DNA of 27,117 bases from a virus (IMGVR_UViG_2693429719_000003); one strand, 5' to 3'; positions 613-21,455 are shown, counted from the stretch's first letter. The notes: generated by a model from the letters alone, not told the origin. A program made the numbers and translations.

Positions 613-643
613 ATAAAAACAACGGGCGTGTTATACGCCCGTT
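613..643 (-). terminator. rho-independent terminator downstream of the icd 3' fragment
   Basis: Perfect 9-bp stem AACGGGCGT (621-629) / ACGCCCGTT (635-643) with a 5-nt loop; on the minus strand it is followed by GTTTTT (615-620) and lies about 25 nt past the icd stop codon. Confidence 0.6.
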
Positions 644-666
644 ATAATATTTAACACATGTGGTAA

Positions 667-831
667 TTACATATTTTTGATGATCGCGTCACCAAACTCG
701 CTGCATTTCAGCAGGTTAGCGCCTTCCATCAGACGTTCGAAGTCATAGGTTACGGTCTTGGCGTTGATTGCGCCTTCCATACCTTTAACAATCAGGTCTG
801 CGGCTTCAGTCCAGCCCATATGGCGTAACAG
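667..831 (-). pseudogene. icd: icd 3'-terminal fragment (about 54 codons, isocitrate dehydrogenase C-terminus); attachment-site duplication marking the prophage/host junction
   Basis: Minus-strand translation [53 protein letters not shown], stop at 667-669. This matches the Icd C-terminus; homology stops abruptly upstream (ILL instead of MML) and no icd body is present. Phage 21 and e14 integrate in icd and duplicate this segment. Confidence 0.85.
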
Positions 832-1020
832 TATATAAAAACCATGAATTCAAGTCATTGATATTTAATGATAAAAATTATTTTATTGTCTTTTTATTAG
901 CCAAAATAAACTTTATTCAACCGTTTGATTTCATTGACGTTCGTTTATATTTTGGGGAAAGGTTTTCTCTACCATTTATATCCAAATTACAAGTCTACAT
1001 TTTATTAACATCTCAATACA

Positions 1021-1051
1021 TGTGAGGCCTTGTAGACCTTTGTGAGGCCTT
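1021..1051. promoter_or_regulatory. direct repeat TGTGAGGCCTT x2 (20-bp periodicity), candidate integrase arm-type sites
   Basis: Identical 11-mers at 1021-1031 and 1041-1051, about 190 bp on the phage side of the icd core homology. An IHF-consensus match (AATCAAACGGTTG, minus strand, 918-930) lies in the AT-rich stretch between. Confidence 0.3.
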
Positions 1052-1314
1052 ATGTGTCTCAGTTTTGTCCCACCTTGTATTACGACTTGCATAGCCAATG
1101 AAGATAAATGTGACGACAAACGGCGCAGCAGTCTTCTTTTCCTTCATACTTTCCCCACCCAGCATGCATACCTTCTACCATAACTGTAGTGAATGTCTGT
1201 TATGAGCGAGTAGCGGAAGTTAGGGCTACAAGATGACTAATTAAGTTGCGGTAATTAAGTACAGGTTATGGACTTCCTGATCACGATGCCTTCTAACTCG
1301 TCAGTAGCTGGCTA

Positions 1315-1606
1315 AGAATTGATAACCAGGTAAGCAATTGTGTCTCTCGTGGAGCTTTTAAGCGGGATGCTAACGGATTTAACCCGCTTACTGACGCAGG
1401 AATAATCCGGACAGCGAAGCGGGAGATTCATCATGGTGGAAATGGCAAGTTCAGAATAACCTTGCGGGCCCCCCGCGAAGCAGTTTTTGGTTTGTCGTAC
1501 CATGACTGAATGGTCGACTCATCAAGCCGGAATGTCAGTGAACCACGATTGACGAGCGCCTTGTTGTAGGTGTTCCAGTTGGTGATTTTTAGCTTTTTTT
1601 TGCCAT
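1315..1606 (-). pseudogene. IS903-type transposase, 5' fragment, frameshifted and truncated
   Basis: ATG at 1604-1606 (minus strand) is followed by an A8 homopolymer (T-run 1594-1601 on plus) that shifts the frame after the MAK start. The two fragments appear as ORFs 1431..1658 and 1312..1503 in different frames; only about the first 115 codons are present. Confidence 0.8.
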
Positions 1607-1682
1607 GAGATACTGCTACAAGACCGTAATGTGGTGATCTGATCCTGATATCTGCCAAAAGTTCGATTTATTCAACATAGCC
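1315..1682 (-). mobile_element. IS903-group (IS5 family) insertion sequence remnant: left terminal inverted repeat plus 5' part of the transposase gene, truncated
   Basis: Minus-strand end sequence GGCTATGTTGAATAAATCGAACTTTTGG (1655-1682) matches the IS903 terminal inverted repeat as I recall it (GGCTTTGTTGAATAAATCGAACTTTTG). The downstream ORF fragments (KKKLKITNWNTYNKALVNRGSLTF...; ...MNLPLRCPDYSCVSKRVKSV...) match the IS903 transposase N-terminus. Homology ends near 1315. Confidence 0.85.
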
Positions 1683-1784
1683 CTTTCCAGTTGTAATCCT
1701 TATACAAAAGTTCATCTTTGGCTATATCAGTCTTAAAAATCCCAGTATATTATTTGCCAAACAACACCGGTCTTATAAGGACAT

Positions 1785-1808
1785 GCCCGTGCCCGTGCCC
1801 GTGCCCGG
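1785..1808. repeat. hexanucleotide tandem repeat GCCCGT x3 plus GCCCGG
   Basis: gcccgtgcccgtgcccgtgcccgg read directly in the sequence; a GC-rich microsatellite in an AT-rich region about 70 bp upstream of ORF A. Confidence 0.9.
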
Positions 1809-1817
1809 CTTAATCAT

Positions 1818-1843
1818 TTGACTAAAATCTCAAAATGTATACT
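1818..1843 (+). promoter_or_regulatory. candidate sigma70 promoter for cargo ORF A
   Basis: TTGACT (1818-1823) and a TG-TATACT extended-10-like element (1836-1843); the spacer is short (14 nt), so the call is weak. An AAGGAA Shine-Dalgarno follows at 1862-1867. Confidence 0.3.
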
Positions 1844-1874
1844 GAATAAACACTCTATCTAAAGGAAATTATCA

Positions 1875-2384
1875 GTGAAAGCATCCGATTGGATTCAACA
1901 AAACATACGACACTCAGCACAACTGGAACCTAATACACTCGAAGCAGTATCCGACTTCACTCTTATGTGGTCGATTTTTGAGGCTTCAGAAGCTCATAAT
2001 GAGAATGTTGTAGAGCAGATTGGGGTTCTTTCAAAGCGAGTCGCAAGGGATATGCCATCAGATGCGATCGACTCCCAGTTATCATATTGGTCTAAACGCT
2101 ATATACATGAAAGCGGTGAACCAACAGAGCATTTCAATTACCTCTATTTTAGAGAACTTTCACAAACTGTGAAATCACTTAACGTACTAAGAAATGAAGA
2201 AACTTCTTTTGAAGATAAAATCGAAGTGTGCCTCTTAATTGTCTATAGGTATCGAAATAATTTATTTCACGGTATCAAAGATATCACGTTGCTAAATGCA
2301 CAGGTAGAAAATCTTCGGAACGCAATAGAATTATTACAAATAATTATGCCATATAGCGGGAGATACCTTTTTCTCGGGGCCTAA
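1875..2384 (+). CDS. hypothetical 169-aa protein with an Rx4H (RNNLFH) HEPN-like motif; cargo gene A
   Basis: ORF with GTG start preceded by AAGGAA 7 nt upstream; AT-rich. Motif R127-N-N-L-F-H132 fits the HEPN Rx4-6H signature in a small, apparently helical protein. No recognisable homology beyond that. Confidence 0.7.
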   Translation: MKASDWIQQNIRHSAQLEPNTLEAVSDFTLMWSIFEASEAHNENVVEQIGVLSKRVARDMPSDAIDSQLSYWSKRYIHESGEPTEHFNYLYFRELSQTVKSLNVLRNEETSFEDKIEVCLLIVYRYRNNLFHGIKDITLLNAQVENLRNAIELLQIIMPYSGRYLFLGA

Positions 2385-2404
2385 TTAGCTATATGAAGCA
2401 GTGG

Positions 2405-2434
2405 AGTCTATTTCAATTATAATCTAAATAGACT
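2405..2434 (+). other. stem-loop downstream of ORF A (possible weak terminator)
   Basis: Perfect 9-bp inverted repeat AGTCTATTT (2405-2413) / AAATAGACT (2426-2434) with a 12-nt loop; the downstream T-run is poor. Confidence 0.25.
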
Positions 2435-2752
2435 CACTTCCATTGGTGTTTTGAATTGGTCGATGGGTTTTGTTATGGCTGTCCAATATGAGCGAAGAGC
2501 AGATTGTGTGGTTCAATACAGAATCACGATCCTTTATTAAGATAAGATTCAGCGATAAAGAAGGTTTTTATATTTTAATTTATAAGAAGAATTTTTGTTG
2601 TGCGCCTATACAAATAATTAATTTTATAGTAATGAGTTTCTCAATGACTTATCAAAGTGAAAATCATTCTGGAATGAGGCTAAAAGCGACGCGGAATTAA
2701 AAAAGCTTTCATCTTTGAAATATTGAAGTATTTCCCTCTCTATATCACTAGA

Positions 2753-2778
2753 CTGACAATAACTAAAGAGCTATAATG
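2753..2778 (+). promoter_or_regulatory. candidate promoter for cargo ORF B (consensus -10 TATAAT)
   Basis: Perfect TATAAT at 2773-2778, 32 nt upstream of the ATG; only a weak -35-like CTGACA at 2753-2758 with a short spacer. Confidence 0.3.
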
Positions 2779-2809
2779 CAATTATTTCAAATTATTAAAG
2801 GGTGGGGGT

Positions 2810-4045
2810 ATGAATAGCACGTTAAAAGAACTTGAGAGAAATTGCGCGCCAATAGATTTTATTGACCCATTGGCTCGATTGGTCTTAGATGATTTAGCTA
2901 TGTGGGCAAATGATAATATATACTCAAAACAATCTGGGTGTTTAACTTATGAATTGCCTCTTGATGGAAACATCAATGCAGCGTGTATAAGTTATCATGA
3001 CTCACGCTATCGAACCCATATTAAAATAAACCTGGGAATGGTTCAGGAAATCTACATCCAGTCATTTACCTATCCAGGTTACATTAAATATCTAGAAAGT
3101 GGAAATTGGCATTTCAACGCTCTTGATGAACCCTTTAGTGATGCTGAATTTTTATTCGAAGGTGGCATCCCTCCAAGAGTTAACGCGTCTGACACGGTCA
3201 CTCATATGGTAGAGCTATACAAAAGCATTCCTAACAACAGCAATACCATGTGGACTGATGAAGAATTAATTTGCCGTTTTGCCATGTTCGAATTAATGAT
3301 TGCGTGGATATTTTTTCATGAACTTGCGCATCACGTACAAGGGCACTACAAGATCAAAGGTGAAATAAAAGAATCGGCTACTTATTACGAATTAGATTAC
3401 TCAAGCAACATTAATAATTCCAATCCTGAGGTAACTCCCAGCGTCATCCAAAAGAACATTGACCAGCATGCCCGAGAGATACTTGCAGACCTCGAAGGTA
3501 TGTATTTAACACTCAGAATGATGGTGAGGAATGACACATTAACACCACCTAACACGTTTTTGCTTTTATATGTCCAAACCTCAATGTTTAATGTATTCTA
3601 TAAATTATCTGAGGGAAAGTATGCGGAGTTAGATAGCGTTAAAGTTTCTCACCCCCACCCTGTAATTAGAAACAAATTCGTACACGCCCTGTATGTTTCT
3701 GTGATGAAATGGGAATTGGATAATGATATATACCAAGATTATCGTCACTCTGTTAGCCGAGGTCTTGAATATTATACTGTAAAGTCATCATTGTTAGCTG
3801 GAATGATATGGGCAATGAGACAACCTGATTACAGTCCAGATGTAATGCCCCAATTTCTTAAATTTAGTGATGAGACCGAGCATGCCGCAGATTATAACTA
3901 TCTCAGGGAATTGACCTTAAGCGCTGAAAGGCAATCATCTATCATATCACTCATGCATATCATCGATGATGACTCAGATAATATTTTTAAATTAACAAAA
4001 TTAGACAAGCTATTCACTCATTTTTTAAATGTTAATGAAGAATAA
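2810..4045 (+). CDS. hypothetical 411-aa protein with an HExxH zinc-metallopeptidase motif (FFHELAHHVQGH); cargo gene B
   Basis: Long AT-rich ORF with a G-rich RBS (GGGTGGGGG) directly upstream of the ATG. HELAH at residues 170-174 with further His at 175 and 179 and acidic residues 40-60 aa downstream, resembling ImmA/IrrE (M78)-type or gluzincin motifs. The rest of the protein is unrecognised. Confidence 0.85.
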   Translation: MNSTLKELERNCAPIDFIDPLARLVLDDLAMWANDNIYSKQSGCLTYELPLDGNINAACISYHDSRYRTHIKINLGMVQEIYIQSFTYPGYIKYLESGNWHFNALDEPFSDAEFLFEGGIPPRVNASDTVTHMVELYKSIPNNSNTMWTDEELICRFAMFELMIAWIFFHELAHHVQGHYKIKGEIKESATYYELDYSSNINNSNPEVTPSVIQKNIDQHAREILADLEGMYLTLRMMVRNDTLTPPNTFLLLYVQTSMFNVFYKLSEGKYAELDSVKVSHPHPVIRNKFVHALYVSVMKWELDNDIYQDYRHSVSRGLEYYTVKSSLLAGMIWAMRQPDYSPDVMPQFLKFSDETEHAADYNYLRELTLSAERQSSIISLMHIIDDDSDNIFKLTKLDKLFTHFLNVNEE

Positions 4046-4272
4046 GATACGATGATTAGTGTTCAATTTCACCAGGGATCTGAACACCTGTCATTTGTAC
4101 AGGGCACTGTTACAGTCCTGACAACCCTAGAGTTTAATCAACTCATAGATCTCTAACTCATCACCGACTTAATGTTTATATAGCGGAATGAGCTTTCCAT
4201 GTCAGATATAACAATGTCCGCTTCTGGCACATAGCAGCCCTAGAGACAGTGGCGTAAAGTCATGGAGGACCG

Positions 4273-4298
4273 ATGGGAGGAGGCACAAATCCTCCCAT
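4273..4298. other. perfect 9-bp stem-loop in the B-C intergenic region
   Basis: ATGGGAGGA (4273-4281) / TCCTCCCAT (4290-4298) with an 8-nt loop; it is followed by an A-run rather than a T-run, so it is not a canonical plus-strand terminator. Confidence 0.3.
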
Positions 4299-4417
4299 AC
4301 AAAAAATACGTAAAATCGATAACAGATTGAAATAATTCAATATTCTCACTATCAGAAGCTGACCGGCCAGCCGCAGCACTTTCTTGCAGACGACGAGCCT
4401 GCGGTTTCAACTCCACC

Positions 4418-4451
4418 AGCCCACCAATCATTATTGGGCTTTTTCGTTTTT
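4418..4451 (+). terminator. possible rho-independent terminator between ORF B and ORF C
   Basis: 6-bp stem AGCCCA / TGGGCT with an 11-nt loop, followed by TTTTCGTTTTT (4441-4451). The stem is marginal. Confidence 0.3.
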
Positions 4452-4581
4452 CTTCACCTGCAAGCAAACCGTTGTATCATGGCGGAATGAAGATGAGCTA
4501 GGAATAATCTTATAAATCAGCTCAATATTCATATAAAAACATTTCGAACTTTGGTGTACAAAACTACATAGGGATAACTTT

Positions 4582-5784
4582 ATGTCTCTTCGTTTCAGAC
4601 AAACCTTTACTCTATTTCCTGGCGTTCGACTCAACATTGGCAAGCGTGGAATAAGTGCAAGCATTGGCGTGCCTGGCGCAACTGTCAATGTTGGTAAAAA
4701 AGGGGTTAGAGCAACTGTCGGATTACCGGGCACAGGCTTATCTTATACTACACCTACCTTGCCCTATGATGATGGATACTCAGTTACCAATCCATTAAAT
4801 CCAGCCCCTACAGAACCTCATTTGGAGTCTGGGTCATCTCCAGAAAACACACCATCGAACGCTAAAATATATATGCCTGTAGCTGGCATGAATGAAATAT
4901 CCAGCGCTTCGGTAGAAGTCCTTACAAGTACCTCCCTTTTACCTTTACGAGATTTGATTGCTAAAGCACGAGAACAAAGAGCAGAGATAAAAGCAGATCT
5001 TCAAGAGGCTCTTGCCGAAGAATCAAAACAAAAAAGCGAGCTGGCTCGACGCAAATCAAGTCTATTCCGTTGGTTTTACAAACGACGCATCGCAGAACTT
5101 GAGACACTACTCCCCCTAACCCAAGCTGAGATATCTCGCCTAGTTTCATGGGAAGACAGCACAAAAATAGCCATAACATTCGAGAGCAGTGATGCTTCAC
5201 AGCGCGCATATGCAGCGATGGTCCATGCATTTGATATGTTAAAATCGAGTGTCAAAAAATGGGATATTACTGCAGATAAAGCTACAGACCAGTTTGCTGA
5301 AAGAACATTAGCAACCCGGTCTGTTAATCGTCACCCAGTTACCTTTGATTTTAGTTCAACGGATCTCATTCAATTTACAGGGCGTGCGATGAGGTTTGAA
5401 AATGTAAATGGAGACGATATTTTGCTTTATCCTGGAGTTGCAGTCATACCACGAGCTGATGGAGCATTCGCTCTGATTGATTTACGCGAATTACAAATTA
5501 GTTCAGAATATCTAAGATTCCATGAGGAAGAAGGTGTTCCCAGTGACTCACGCATAGATGGTTATACATGGGCGAAAACGAATAAGAATGGCTCACCAGA
5601 CCGTCGTTTTAAAGACAACTACCAAATCCCTATTTGCATTTATGGAAATATTACTTTCCATTCTCAAACAGGGGTAACTGAAGAATATATGGTATCAAAT
5701 GCAGATGCCGCGCACGCCTTTGCTGAGGCAGTAAAACGCTATCAGATTTCACTCACAGAAACAGAAGCGTTGGTACAAGCCTGA
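4582..5784 (+). CDS. hypothetical 400-aa protein: DUF4236-like N-terminus, central coiled coil, uncharacterised C-terminal domain; cargo gene C
   Basis: N-terminus RFRQTFTLFPGVRLNIGKRGISASIGVPGATVNVGKKGVRATVGLPGTGLSY matches the DUF4236 motif as I recall it. Residues about 120-175 are Lys/Glu/Ala-rich and heptad-like (coiled coil). The C-terminal 220 aa or so are unknown. Confidence 0.85.
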   Translation: MSLRFRQTFTLFPGVRLNIGKRGISASIGVPGATVNVGKKGVRATVGLPGTGLSYTTPTLPYDDGYSVTNPLNPAPTEPHLESGSSPENTPSNAKIYMPVAGMNEISSASVEVLTSTSLLPLRDLIAKAREQRAEIKADLQEALAEESKQKSELARRKSSLFRWFYKRRIAELETLLPLTQAEISRLVSWEDSTKIAITFESSDASQRAYAAMVHAFDMLKSSVKKWDITADKATDQFAERTLATRSVNRHPVTFDFSSTDLIQFTGRAMRFENVNGDDILLYPGVAVIPRADGAFALIDLRELQISSEYLRFHEEEGVPSDSRIDGYTWAKTNKNGSPDRRFKDNYQIPICIYGNITFHSQTGVTEEYMVSNADAAHAFAEAVKRYQISLTETEALVQA

Positions 5785-5826
5785 TTTATCGCCGATATGG
5801 GGACGAATCGTAGCCCCCCCTCGAAC

Positions 5827-5866
5827 AAAAAAAACCTTAAGAACCAGACTATTATGGCTGGTTCTT
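5827..5866 (-). terminator. strong rho-independent terminator on the minus strand (candidate end of the late tail-fibre transcript)
   Basis: Perfect 9-bp stem AAGAACCAG (5839-5847) / CTGGTTCTT (5858-5866) with a 10-nt loop, followed on the minus strand by a T8 run (A-run 5827-5834 on plus). Confidence 0.6.
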
Positions 5867-5883
5867 ATACGGAGGATTTGTTA

Positions 5884-5912
5884 TTGTACAACTCTTCTAT
5901 CTGGTATATTTA
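5884..5912 (+). promoter_or_regulatory. candidate sigma70 promoter for cargo ORF D
   Basis: TTGTAC (5884-5889), 17-nt spacer, TATTTA (5907-5912), about 80 nt upstream of the ATG at 5993. Confidence 0.4.
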
Positions 5913-5992
5913 CGGATAGAACTGTTCAGGCTACTCAATCCTTTTTAAGTACAAATGAACAGATAGAAATAGTTATATTGCAAGGAGCTATC

Positions 5993-6781
5993 ATGCACAC
6001 TGAGTATATATGGCGATACCTTGACATAGAGAAATTCTCTATGTTACTCGAACAAAATGCTTTATTTTTTTGCTCAGCAAAAAATTTTGAAGATCCGTTC
6101 GAAGGTGAATTTGCTTGGGGACATACTGGCTATAAAAAATTCATTGAGACACAGGAAAAACTATGCGCTACTCATGGTGCCGGCATGGACTTAGATCCTT
6201 TCATGGCATTCAATTTAAAGACACTTAAGGAAATAAGCGAGAGGACATATATAAGTTGCTGGCATTGTAACGAACATGAATCTGAAGCTATGTGGAAGCT
6301 GTATTGTAAAAATCCCGCTAAAGGCGTTGTCATAAAATCAAAGAAAAAAAACCTCCAAAGCCAACTTGAAAATAATAATTTAAACAAACTACAATTAAAA
6401 CACGTAAAATACGTAAAAAATTTCTGGATAAAACAATACAATCCAGAATCAGATGTATTCTTTAACAAGAGACCATCTTTCGAATACGAAAAAGAGTTTA
6501 GAGCTATTTTTCAAGAGAATACCTTTAACACTCCACCTGTAAAGGGAAAACTAGTCCCTGTATCTCTTAACAATCTGTTGGAAGAAATAAGGATTTCACC
6601 TTTCGCAGATAAGGATTTCAAAAATGAAGTTTTACAAATTTCAAAAAAATATGGACTAGATCTAAAAGTCAAAAACTCTGAAATTGAAATGCATCCCATC
6701 ATGCATGTTGAGGAAGAAATAATTGCAGAAGGCCCCAATTGGTATCAGTCAAAAATCAGATTGGCAATACGTGATGCTTAA
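5993..6781 (+). CDS. hypothetical 262-aa protein, DUF2971-like N-terminal motif; cargo gene D
   Basis: ATG at 5993 with a consensus AAGGAG Shine-Dalgarno at 5983-5988 (the ORF track's TTG at 5978 is an upstream in-frame extension). N-terminal YIWRYLDIEKFSMLLEQNALFFCSAKNFEDPFEG resembles the DUF2971 signature. Very AT-rich. Confidence 0.8.
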   Translation: MHTEYIWRYLDIEKFSMLLEQNALFFCSAKNFEDPFEGEFAWGHTGYKKFIETQEKLCATHGAGMDLDPFMAFNLKTLKEISERTYISCWHCNEHESEAMWKLYCKNPAKGVVIKSKKKNLQSQLENNNLNKLQLKHVKYVKNFWIKQYNPESDVFFNKRPSFEYEKEFRAIFQENTFNTPPVKGKLVPVSLNNLLEEIRISPFADKDFKNEVLQISKKYGLDLKVKNSEIEMHPIMHVEEEIIAEGPNWYQSKIRLAIRDA

Positions 6782-6884
6782 TCTTATATTGAAGTTTTTT
6801 ATGTCTCCTGCTGAAACTAGCTAAAATTTACCAAGCCGCAGCACGTTATTGCATACAACATGTATGCGGCGTATCTCAAAACGA

Positions 6885-7469
6885 TTACTCCATAACAGGG
6901 ACAGCAGGCCACTCAATATCCGGTGCTACTGATGTATCAACACGGTTCAGCAACACCCGATACTTCTTCCATGCTGCCAGCAACGACGCCTCTTCTTCCG
7001 TTGCGATCTCCAGATCCACAGCATCCTGAAGTGGCGCAATATGCTCATTCGCTGCCTGCATCAGGCTGTTTTTTGTTTCTTCCGCCTCCCGGATCCGGAA
7101 TAGTTTTTCTGCTTCTGCATCTTTCACCCAGGCTGTGCCGTTCCACTTCTGAAACTCCCCTTCCGGGGATAACCAGGTGACATTTTCCGGTAATGAGCCG
7201 AGTTCAGAAATAAATAACGCGTCGCCGGAAGCCACGTCATAAACCGTTTTACCCCGATGATCTTCAACGAGATGCCACGATGCCTCATCACTGTTGAAAA
7301 CAGCCACGAAGCCAGCCGGAATATCTGGCGGTGCAATATAGGTACTGTTTGCTGGCAGACCTGTATGAGGCGGAATATATGCGTCACCTTCACCAATAAA
7401 TTCATTAGTTCCGGCCAGCAGATTATAAATTTTTATGGTCCGTGGTTGTTCACTCATTCTGAATGCCAT
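6885..7469 (-). CDS. tfa: tail fibre assembly protein Tfa
   Basis: 194 aa, matching lambda Tfa as I recall it; its start codon overlaps the stf stop by 1 nt. Confidence 0.95.
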
Positions 7470-10394: not shown

Positions 10395-10422
10395 CAAAAA
10401 AGCCCGCCTGAACCGGCGGGCT
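10395..10422 (-). terminator. rho-independent terminator downstream of lom
   Basis: Perfect 8-bp GC-rich stem AGCCCGCC (10401-10408) / GGCGGGCT (10415-10422) with a 6-nt loop, followed on the minus strand by T6 (A-run 10396-10401). Confidence 0.6.
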
Positions 10423-21059: not shown

Positions 21060-21455
21060 TCACATTTCATAGGTAATGACATAAGTCAGATCGGCAGAAC
21101 TCCACAGGCCCGCATCATCGTCGCGCCGGTAGTCATAGCCACTGGCCACCATACTGGTGATCAAATCTGACAGTGCCGGGATATCGCTCATCACCGGATA
21201 AATCCGGGACTCCATCCACGAATCCAGCTCTGAATCCGGCACCTGAGCAGGCAGGAAAACTTCAATATGCAGCTCCGCCTGCCAGGTATCGCTGTCCAGC
21301 TCTTCGCCCGTGTATTCAGCGCCGGTGAGATAAACGGCAACTGCCGGAAAATCCTCCTCATCAAAAACAGCGGGGCGACCATCAAAAAGCGTCGCCCCGG
21401 TGTCATGTTTTTCCAGTGTATCCAGTACGGCTGCACGGAGTTCTGTATGTTTCAT
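21060..21455 (-). CDS. U: tail terminator protein U
   Basis: 131 aa, matching lambda gpU. Confidence 0.95.

What the first reader, a model, noticed from the sequence alone, without database searches (positions are those of the whole stretch)
5827..6884. DUF2971-like gene wedged antisense between tfa and the apparent late-operon terminator
ORF D (5993-6781, plus strand) lies between the tfa stop (6885) and a strong minus-strand terminator (5827-5866). Late transcripts reading through tfa would therefore run antisense across ORF D before terminating. That arrangement would silence D during lytic growth and allow expression from its own promoter (TTGTAC-17-TATTTA, 5884-5912) in the lysogen, which is the pattern expected of a prophage-encoded defence or conversion gene.
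Basis: inference. Interest (0 to 1): 0.65.

Follow-up and report, generated by a model that had tools for sequence, protein, structure and literature searches.

The report
Prophage cargo gene: DarT-like ADP-ribosyltransferase
A small gene at the end of an E. coli lambda-like prophage encodes a protein with the fold of the DNA-modifying toxin DarT and is probably an anti-phage defence gene, but its "antisense" placement and the nearby terminator are ordinary by-products of how this part of such prophages is built.

Summary
ORF D (5993-6781, +) is real and intact. It passes Pfam DUF2971 and matches the untested PADLOC candidate PDC-S31. Its AlphaFold model (pLDDT 93) resembles DarT ADP-ribosyltransferases, and an invariant E-x-E motif is kept. 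It is a low-GC, self-contained cassette (~5873-6830). Homologues of 81-83% identity occur alone at the end of a P2-like prophage and in an integrative island.

In sister prophages the slot after tfa holds a DRT reverse transcriptase, a retron RT-TIR, a McrB-like ATPase or lambda ea47/ea31. The defence-gene reading is therefore supported, though untested.

The regulatory reading is not supported:
- Convergent orientation is the norm for this slot, as for lambda ea47.
- Homologues also sit co-directionally with late genes.
- A conserved stem-loop shared with lambda lies between tfa and ORF D.
- The hairpin at 5838-5867 is a degenerate copy of the tRNA-Pro terminator that follows the DUF4236 gene in other prophages, i.e. 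a fossil attachment site.
- The proposed promoter was not called by the scan and is not conserved.

Verdict: a new member of a known kind, of moderate-to-low interest.

The parts
5993..6781 (+). ORF D: a 262-aa DUF2971 / PDC-S31 protein with a DarT-like ADP-ribosyltransferase fold. The invariant E-x-E motif is E166-K-E168.
5982..5987 (+). Shine-Dalgarno sequence AAGGAG, 5 nt before the ATG. It is conserved in homologues, which start with GTG.
5873..5992 (+). Upstream block that travels with ORF D into other mobile elements. It is the leader and probably holds the native promoter, which I could not locate.
   Evidence: Alignments with the P2-like (L084) and island (L089) contexts.
5884..5912 (+). 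The bases are present but unsupported. An overlapping TGgTATATT (5902-5910) resembles an extended -10 element.
   Evidence: Read directly; not called by the scan; not conserved.
5827..5867 (-). Terminator-like hairpin: stem 5838-5847 with 5858-5867, then AGG and U8. It is a degenerate, polarity-changed copy of the tRNA-Pro gene terminator.
5785..5837 (+). Degenerate remnant of the 3' part of tRNA-Pro, i.e. a fossil attachment site, directly after the DUF4236 stop codon.
4582..5784 (+). DUF4236 gene (400 aa). It is always linked to ORF D in E. coli, but is independent of it elsewhere.
6835..6871 (-). Conserved stem-loop 13-50 nt after the tfa stop codon. It is shared with lambda, and homology between prophages ends just beyond it. 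There is no canonical U tract.
6422..6448 (-). An 8-bp A+T-rich hairpin followed by AUUUUUU, inside ORF D on the antisense strand (-8.9 kcal/mol).
6885..7469 (-). tfa, the tail fibre assembly gene and last gene of the late operon.

Best explanation
ORF D is a self-contained, horizontally mobile cargo gene (a 'moron'). It lies in the variable slot between the tail-fibre assembly gene and the attachment-site end of a lambda-like prophage integrated at icd.

It encodes a stand-alone DUF2971-family protein with the fold of the DarT DNA ADP-ribosyltransferases and an intact E-x-E catalytic motif. This much is shown.

The proposed function is inferred. Most likely it is a single-gene, abortive-infection-type defence: when another phage infects the lysogen, the enzyme uses NAD+ to ADP-ribosylate a nucleic acid, or possibly a protein, and blocks phage gene expression or replication.

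Its orientation is simply that of all cargo in this slot, the lambda b-region convention. The hairpin at 5838-5867 is a fossil of a tRNA-Pro attachment site brought in with the neighbouring DUF4236 gene. It may still stop some minus-strand transcription, but it was not built as the late-operon terminator.
For: Family and fold:
- Pfam DUF2971 is passed above the cut-off.
- PADLOC PDC-S31 is hit at E=3.5e-20.
- The AlphaFold model has pLDDT 93.3.
- The top five Foldseek PDB hits are all DarT.
- D34, E37, C89, W90, W101, Y140, K159, E166, E168 and R170 are invariant across 40 homologues. This agrees with the Y and ExE motifs described for DUF2971 in PMC12522546.

Autonomy and mobility:
- An 81%-identical homologue is the last gene after gpD-ogr in a P2-like Enterobacter prophage.
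- An 83%-identical homologue lies in an integrase/Mrr/methylase island.
- Other homologues lie in Pseudomonas prophages, at the edge of an integrative element and on plasmids.
- None of these has a DUF4236 neighbour.
- GC is 0.32-0.35 against about 0.5 in tfa.

Slot:
- Sister prophages carry DRT UG17, retron XII RT-TIR, a McrB-like ATPase or ea47/ea31 in the same place.

Precedent:
- Aristaios (DUF2971) is a validated single-gene Abi that impairs phage transcription.

Fossil attachment site:
-.
Against: - There are no expression or phenotype data for this gene.
- PDC-S31 is an untested candidate.
- Aristaios shares only the Pfam family. No lactococcal sequence was found by tblastn, and I could not compare the two proteins directly.
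- No promoter could be located.
- One homologue lies inside a late operon, between the terminase subunits. That suits a phage-serving role as well as a defence role.
- PMC12522546 predicts that 18% of DUF2971 proteins are secreted effectors.
- No antitoxin or other control on a potentially toxic enzyme is visible.
Confidence: 0.55

Rival explanations
1. The antisense position is a regulatory device: late transcripts run across ORF D and end at 5838-5867. That silences D during lytic growth, while its own promoter drives it in the lysogen.
For: - The hairpin plus U8 is real and non-random.
- Compared with its tRNA-Pro ancestor, the window copy has lost the plus-strand T tract and gained a longer A run. 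It now looks like a terminator only on the minus strand.
- A P. nitroreducens prophage also carries two DUF2971 genes opposed to the surrounding genes.
Against: - Convergence is the default for this slot.
- Homologues are co-directional with late genes in two prophages.
- A conserved stem-loop (6835-6871) and a second hairpin (6422-6448) come first on the late strand.
- The hairpin belongs to the DUF4236/att module.
- The prophage has Q, and Q-modified polymerase ignores intrinsic terminators (established knowledge).
- The promoter is unsupported.
Confidence: 0.15
2. ORF D serves the phage itself. Like lambda's Ea genes, it would be transcribed in the pL/int direction after excision. Like T4 Alt/ModA/ModB, it would ADP-ribosylate host or rival targets to favour replication or to counter host defences.
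For: - In the full prophage, the repressor-side early genes, xis and int are on the same strand as ORF D. After circularisation they lie upstream of it.
- On the plus strand the 5838-5867 hairpin has no U tract, so read-through from the DUF4236 gene is possible.
- One homologue sits in a late operon.
Against: - No N-like ORF was found between the repressor gene and kil, so long-range antitermination is unproven.
- About 5 kb and an IS remnant lie between the attachment site and ORF D.
- Homologues occur in non-phage islands and on plasmids.
- The family was picked up embedded in BREX, DISARM and RM loci.
Confidence: 0.2
3. ORF D is a lysogenic-conversion toxin or effector acting on eukaryotic or competitor cells. 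Alternatively, it is a catalytically dead ART-fold protein with another role.
For: - PMC12522546 predicts that some DUF2971 proteins are effectors.
- lom, a conversion gene, lies in the same prophage arm.
Against: - The N-terminus (MHTEYIWRYLDIEKF) is not a visible signal sequence.
- No secretion genes are nearby.
- The E-x-E motif is invariant.
- The best structural matches are nucleic-acid ARTs.
Confidence: 0.07

Closest known systems
PADLOC phage defence candidate PDC-S31 / Pfam DUF2971 (PF11185)
   Same: It hits four PDC-S31 models (best E=3.5e-20) and passes the Pfam gathering score. It is a single ~260-aa protein, like most of the family: 23,944 clusters at 50% identity, mostly 240-270 aa.
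   Different: PDC systems were defined as genes embedded in BREX, DISARM or type I RM loci, and they are untested. Here the gene is prophage cargo next to tail-fibre genes. The subfamily closest to ORF D (43% identity or more) carries an extra C-terminal beta-hairpin, residues ~237-259.
Aristaios (Lactococcus plasmid pUCCL641, 316 aa)
   Same: It is a DUF2971 protein predicted to have an ART fold, acts as a single gene and sits on a mobile element. It is a validated abortive-infection-like system that affects phage transcription.
   Different: It is only a distant relative.
DarT of the DarTG toxin-antitoxin defence system
   Different: There is no sequence-level match to DarT in Pfam, PADLOC or the PDB. 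Identity is 8-14%. Large helical inserts are present (helices 43-61 and 67-83). There is no adjacent DarG macrodomain antitoxin; the neighbours are the DUF4236 gene and tfa.
Lambda b-region genes (ea47, ea31, ea59) and prophage 'morons'
   Same: The position is the same, immediately after tfa and its conserved 3' stem-loop. ORF D is convergent with tfa, lies in a non-essential variable region next to the attachment site, and has low GC.
   Different: The proteins are unrelated. Whether ORF D has its own promoter and terminator, which is the definition of a moron, could not be shown.

Membership tests
Pfam DUF2971 (PF11185) | Score above the curated gathering threshold. | tested here: met
   30.7 bits against a cut-off of 22, E=8.2e-7, residues 100-170. 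39 of 40 aligned homologues also match.
PADLOC PDC-S31 | Match to the PDC-S31 HMMs as a single-gene unit. | tested here: met
   Four PDC-S31 models hit, best E=3.5e-20. Homologues occur without a conserved partner gene.
PADLOC PDC-S31 | Demonstrated anti-phage activity. | not testable with these tools
   PDC systems are described as untested candidates.
ADP-ribosyltransferase superfamily | ART core fold. | tested here: met
ADP-ribosyltransferase superfamily | Catalytic motif III (E or ExE) at the start of a core strand. | tested here: met
   E166 and E168 are invariant in 40 homologues. E168 opens strand 168-174 of the model.
ADP-ribosyltransferase superfamily | NAD+-binding motifs I (H/R) and II (Y or S-x-S) in the right places. 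| tested here: inconclusive
   R8 (R/K), Y104 and Y140 are conserved. No residue-level superposition on a solved ART was available.
DarTG toxin-antitoxin | Sequence membership of the DarT family. | tested here: not met
   No DarT hit in PADLOC at E<=0.1, in Pfam at E<=10 or in a PDB profile search at E<=10.
DarTG toxin-antitoxin | Adjacent DarG macrodomain antitoxin. | tested here: not met
   The neighbours are DUF4236 and tfa. No macrodomain appears in any homologue's neighbourhood.
Aristaios | Close sequence relationship to pUCCL641_199 and an Abi phenotype. | not tested
   Only the shared Pfam family is known. The sequence could not be obtained.
Rho-independent terminator (5827-5867, minus strand) | G+C-rich stem immediately followed by a U tract. 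| tested here: inconclusive
   The stem is 10 bp with only 4 G-C pairs, and U8 comes after a 3-nt spacer; energy is -13.2 kcal/mol. It is non-random but was missed by the standard scan. It derives from a plus-strand tRNA-Pro terminator.
Moron (autonomous prophage cargo unit) | Discrete insertion with its own promoter and terminator, and atypical composition. | tested here: inconclusive
   The boundaries are discrete, ~5873 and ~6830, and GC is low. No promoter or plus-strand terminator could be identified.

The most novel reading that the evidence does not exclude
ORF D is a stand-alone nucleic-acid ADP-ribosyltransferase that needs no antitoxin, and the lambdoid lineage has adapted its surroundings to give the prophage self-immunity. 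On this reading, the fossil tRNA-Pro terminator was re-polarised (plus-strand T tract lost, A run lengthened to A8). Late or lom-stf-tfa read-through would then cross ORF D in antisense and stop before the DUF4236 gene, shutting the toxin off when the prophage itself goes lytic.
Probability: 0.1. Interest if true: 0.6.

Novelty: new member of a known kind. Interest (0 to 1): 0.3.

Why it matters
DUF2971 is a very large family: about 24,000 clusters at 50% identity. Only one distant member has been shown experimentally to act against phages, and none has a known target, trigger or means of self-control. A member carried on a lambda-like E. coli prophage, present in 122 of 5,426 complete genomes, would be a convenient genetic system. 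It could be used to ask what a DarT-like enzyme without an antitoxin modifies, and how it is kept harmless. The regional anatomy also gives practical landmarks for finding cargo in lambdoid prophages: a conserved tfa 3' stem-loop marks the start of the cargo slot, and a fossil tRNA-Pro attachment site marks an old integration-module swap.

Tried and rejected
- **DUF4236 as a partner gene.** Rejected. The two genes are always linked in E. coli (122/122). Yet ORF D homologues elsewhere lack DUF4236, and DUF4236 homologues elsewhere are followed by the tRNA-Pro attachment site, not by ORF D.
- **DarT family membership by sequence.** No hits.
- **Promoter.** The scan found none upstream of ORF D. 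Inspecting the block conserved in three contexts gave no convincing -35/-10 pair.
- **Plus-strand terminator for ORF D.** None found.
- **N-like antiterminator gene in the full prophage.** No ORF of 40 aa or more lies between the repressor gene and kil, so the pL read-through rival rests on analogy only.
- **Literature on where lambda late transcription ends.** Nothing usable.
- **Literature on PDC-S31.** No paper holds the term.
- **afdb50 fold library.** Not available.
- **BFVD viral fold search.** Only uncharacterised proteins.
- **Phage GenBank records.** A single weak hit to ORF D, in an Acinetobacter phage.
- **The 408-aa gene next to DUF4236 in L100.** Not homologous to the window's 411-aa gene.
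- **Aristaios sequence.** Could not be retrieved.

Full report
**Setting.** The window is the right-hand end of a lambda-like prophage integrated at icd in E. coli.
- A 99.9%-identical copy lies in strain SC418.
- Its annotation places host genes (ycgX ... iraM) on the left, then the displaced icd 3' fragment at window ~673-840, which marks the attachment-site end, and then an IS remnant.
- Next come plus-strand ORFs at 1875-2384, 2810-4045 and 4582-5784 (DUF4236), followed by ORF D.
- The late operon follows on the minus strand: tfa 6885-7469, stf, lom, J and onward.
- The rest of the prophage has Q, lysis genes, O/P-type replication genes, an S24-type repressor, and kil-gam-bet-exo-xis-int on the plus strand, ending at icd.
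- The region 840-6884 is therefore the counterpart of lambda's b region.

**The observation.**
- ORF D is real. The start at 5993 follows AAGGAG and is supported by 262-aa homologues aligning end to end. NCBI's pipeline calls a shorter product from 6041, which would cut off the conserved IWRY...DPFEG N-terminus.
- It passes Pfam DUF2971.
- The hairpin is present at 5838-5867. It has a 10-bp stem with 4 G-C pairs, then AGG and U8 on the minus strand, at -13.2 kcal/mol and z = -4.4.
- My scan for perfect stems of at least 8 bp followed by a T run found only five sites in the window, all on the minus strand, against 0.1 in shuffles.
- The other four sites are the icd terminator (621-643), a canonical terminator after lom (10401-10422), one in the head-gene region (21372-21398) and a weak one inside ORF D (6422-6448).
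- The proposed promoter hexamers exist, but the scan did not call them and they are not conserved.

**What ORF D encodes.**
- It hits four models of the PADLOC candidate PDC-S31, best E=3.5e-20. It also hits PHROGs of unknown function and nothing in NCBIfam.
- An alignment of 40 homologues has invariant D34, E37, C89, W90, W101, Y140, K159, E166, E168, R170 and P203.
- AlphaFold with that alignment gives pLDDT 93.3.
- Foldseek's five best PDB hits are all DarT.
- E166-K-E168 lies at the start of a core strand, where ARTs carry their catalytic ExE.
- This agrees with a bioinformatic survey that placed DUF2971 among ARTs near DarT and AbiGi, with a conserved Y and ExE (PMC12522546).
- At sequence level there is no match to DarT or to any solved structure.
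- The family is very large: 23,944 clusters at E<=1e-3, mostly 240-270 aa.

**Is it a defence gene?** Four lines point that way; none is a test of this gene.
- *Candidate status.* PDC systems are candidates found embedded in BREX, DISARM and RM loci, and are untested.
- *Precedent.* Aristaios, a lactococcal DUF2971 protein, is a validated single-gene Abi-like system that impairs phage transcription.
- *Mobility.* ORF D behaves as an autonomous mobile cassette.
  - Homology with an 81%-identical Enterobacter gene and an 83%-identical island gene runs from ~5873 to the stop codon and no further.
  - Those copies are the last gene after gpD-ogr of a P2-like prophage and a gene in an integrase/Mrr/methylase island.
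  - More distant relatives lie by a Pseudomonas P2-like prophage, in a prophage early region, between terminase subunits, at the edge of an integrative element, in a small chromosomal islet and on plasmids of Bacillus, haloarchaea, Alteromonas and Acinetobacter.
  - None has a conserved partner gene.
- *The slot itself.* In prophages whose tfa is at least 92% identical, the gene immediately after tfa varies. It is lambda ea47, an unknown 205-aa ORF, a McrB-like AAA_5 ATPase, a DRT reverse transcriptase (RT_UG17, E=8e-159), a retron type XII RT-TIR (E=7e-188), a methyltransferase, or ORF D. The slot is therefore a cargo hotspot rich in defence genes.

**Why the antisense/terminator logic does not hold.**
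1. *Orientation.* Lambda ea47 is convergent with tfa, and the first downstream gene is convergent in 6 of 10 sister classes. ORF D homologues, by contrast, are co-directional with late genes after ogr and between the terminase genes.
2. *A structure lies between tfa and ORF D.*
   - A stem-loop at 6835-6871 (-18.2 kcal/mol) is shared with lambda and with every tfa class but one in IMG/VR.
   - Across 11 variants, 91% of cells pair and two pairs show changes on both sides. This is modest covariation among closely related sequences.
   - Homology between E. coli prophages breaks at ~6831-6836, just past it.
   - It has no canonical U tract, so I cannot call it a terminator. It does mark the functional end of the tfa module.
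3. *The 5838-5867 hairpin belongs to another module.*
   - In about 25 IMG/VR loci the DUF4236 gene is followed by GGGGTGTCGGGGGTCGGAGGTTCAAATCCTCTCGTGCCGACCA and then AAGAACCAGCC-TGTTAC-GGCTGGTTTTTTT.
   - That stretch is the 3' part of tRNA-Pro and its terminator, found in 5,419 of 5,426 E. coli genomes and annotated tRNA-Pro.
   - Window 5785-5870 aligns to it as a degenerate copy.
   - I infer that an ancestor integrated at tRNA-Pro, with DUF4236 beside attP. The integration module was later replaced by the icd-specific one, leaving a fossil site.
   - In the window copy the plus-strand T tract is broken (TTCTTATAC) and the preceding A run is A8. This is why the hairpin now reads as a minus-strand terminator.
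4. *Antitermination.* The prophage encodes Q. By established knowledge, Q-modified RNA polymerase reads through intrinsic terminators. None of these hairpins need end late transcription.

**Mosaic map.**

| Coordinates | Feature |
|---|---|
| 4582-5784 | DUF4236 gene |
| 5785-5870 | Fossil tRNA-Pro attachment site plus terminator |
| ~5873-6830 | ORF D cassette |
| 6835-6871 | Conserved tfa 3' stem-loop |
| 6885-7469 | tfa |

In E. coli the DUF4236-ORF D-tfa arrangement is fixed in one lineage, present in 122 of 5,426 complete genomes.

**Rival readings.**
- A phage-serving early function is possible, because the early genes and int read in the same direction and the hairpin is not a plus-strand terminator. 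However, I found no N-like gene, and the family's presence on islands and plasmids argues against a purely phage role.
- A secreted-effector role has little support.

**Verdict.** ORF D is a new member of a known kind: a DUF2971 / PDC-S31, DarT-like ART carried as prophage cargo. It is probably defensive. The architecture that drew attention to it is generic or accidental.

Noticed in passing
window 6835-6871 (minus strand): A stem-loop immediately after the tfa stop codon is conserved from lambda through many lambdoid prophages, with a little covariation. Homology between prophages ends just past it. It has no U tract and its role is unknown; it could be an mRNA 3'-end, a stability element or a recombination boundary.
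   Followed up: partly
window 5785-5870: A degenerate copy of the 3' part of tRNA-Pro and its terminator follows the DUF4236 gene. In other prophages the intact version sits there as the attachment site. This looks like a fossil attP from an ancestor that integrated at tRNA-Pro, before the icd-specific integration module was acquired.
   Followed up: yes
window 2810-4045 (+): A 411-aa protein of no known family carries an HExxH motif (FFHELAHHVQGH). It has weak hits centred on that motif to the phage-exclusion protease Lit: PADLOC E=6.5e-4 and NCBIfam E=3.9e-3, far below the cut-off. Lit is encoded by e14, which also integrates at icd.
   Followed up: partly
window 1875-2384 (+): A 169-aa ORF has a weak PADLOC hit to PD-T4-5 (E=2e-4) and a hit to phrog_27260. 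The SC418 annotation calls a shorter product here. It may be another defence-related cargo gene.
   Followed up: no
window 4582-5784 (+): The DUF4236 protein (400 aa) matches phrog_17982 over its full length. It recurs next to the tRNA-Pro attachment site of other prophages, two genes downstream of the integrase gene. It has a 32%-identical full-length relative in Microcystis phages. Its function is unknown.
   Followed up: partly
window 10401-10422 (minus strand): A canonical strong terminator (AGCCCGCC-GGTTCA-GGCGGGCT followed by TTTTTT, -18.2 kcal/mol) lies between lom and stf, inside the late operon. stf and tfa expression would therefore need antitermination or a promoter of their own.
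   Followed up: no
window 6422-6448 (minus strand): An 8-bp hairpin followed by AUUUUUU lies inside ORF D on the antisense strand. It may be a chance product of the A+T-rich sequence, but it is one of only five such sites in the window.
   Followed up: partly
window 621-840 and ~1320-1654: The displaced icd 3' fragment with the native icd terminator (621-643) marks the prophage-host junction. A frameshifted transposase remnant lies just inside the prophage.
   Followed up: partly
L025, L062, L015 (IMG/VR sister prophages), first gene after tfa: The same slot holds a DRT RT_UG17 reverse transcriptase, a retron type XII RT-TIR and a McrB-like AAA_5 ATPase. This makes the position after tfa a defence-gene hotspot in lambdoid prophages.
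   Followed up: partly
L003 15224-16027 and 18788-19831 (rest of the same prophage in SC418): Two more plus-strand genes sit opposed to the surrounding minus-strand operons: a DUF3800 gene between Q and the holin gene, and an alpha/beta hydrolase gene in the nin region. An emrE gene and a serine recombinase gene (ybcK) also lie in the nin region.
   Followed up: no
L128 4248-4910 and 8001-8780 (Pseudomonas nitroreducens prophage): Two different DUF2971 genes lie about 3 kb apart in one prophage early region. Both are opposed to their neighbours and lie next to an SMC/AAA_15-type ATPase gene.
   Followed up: no
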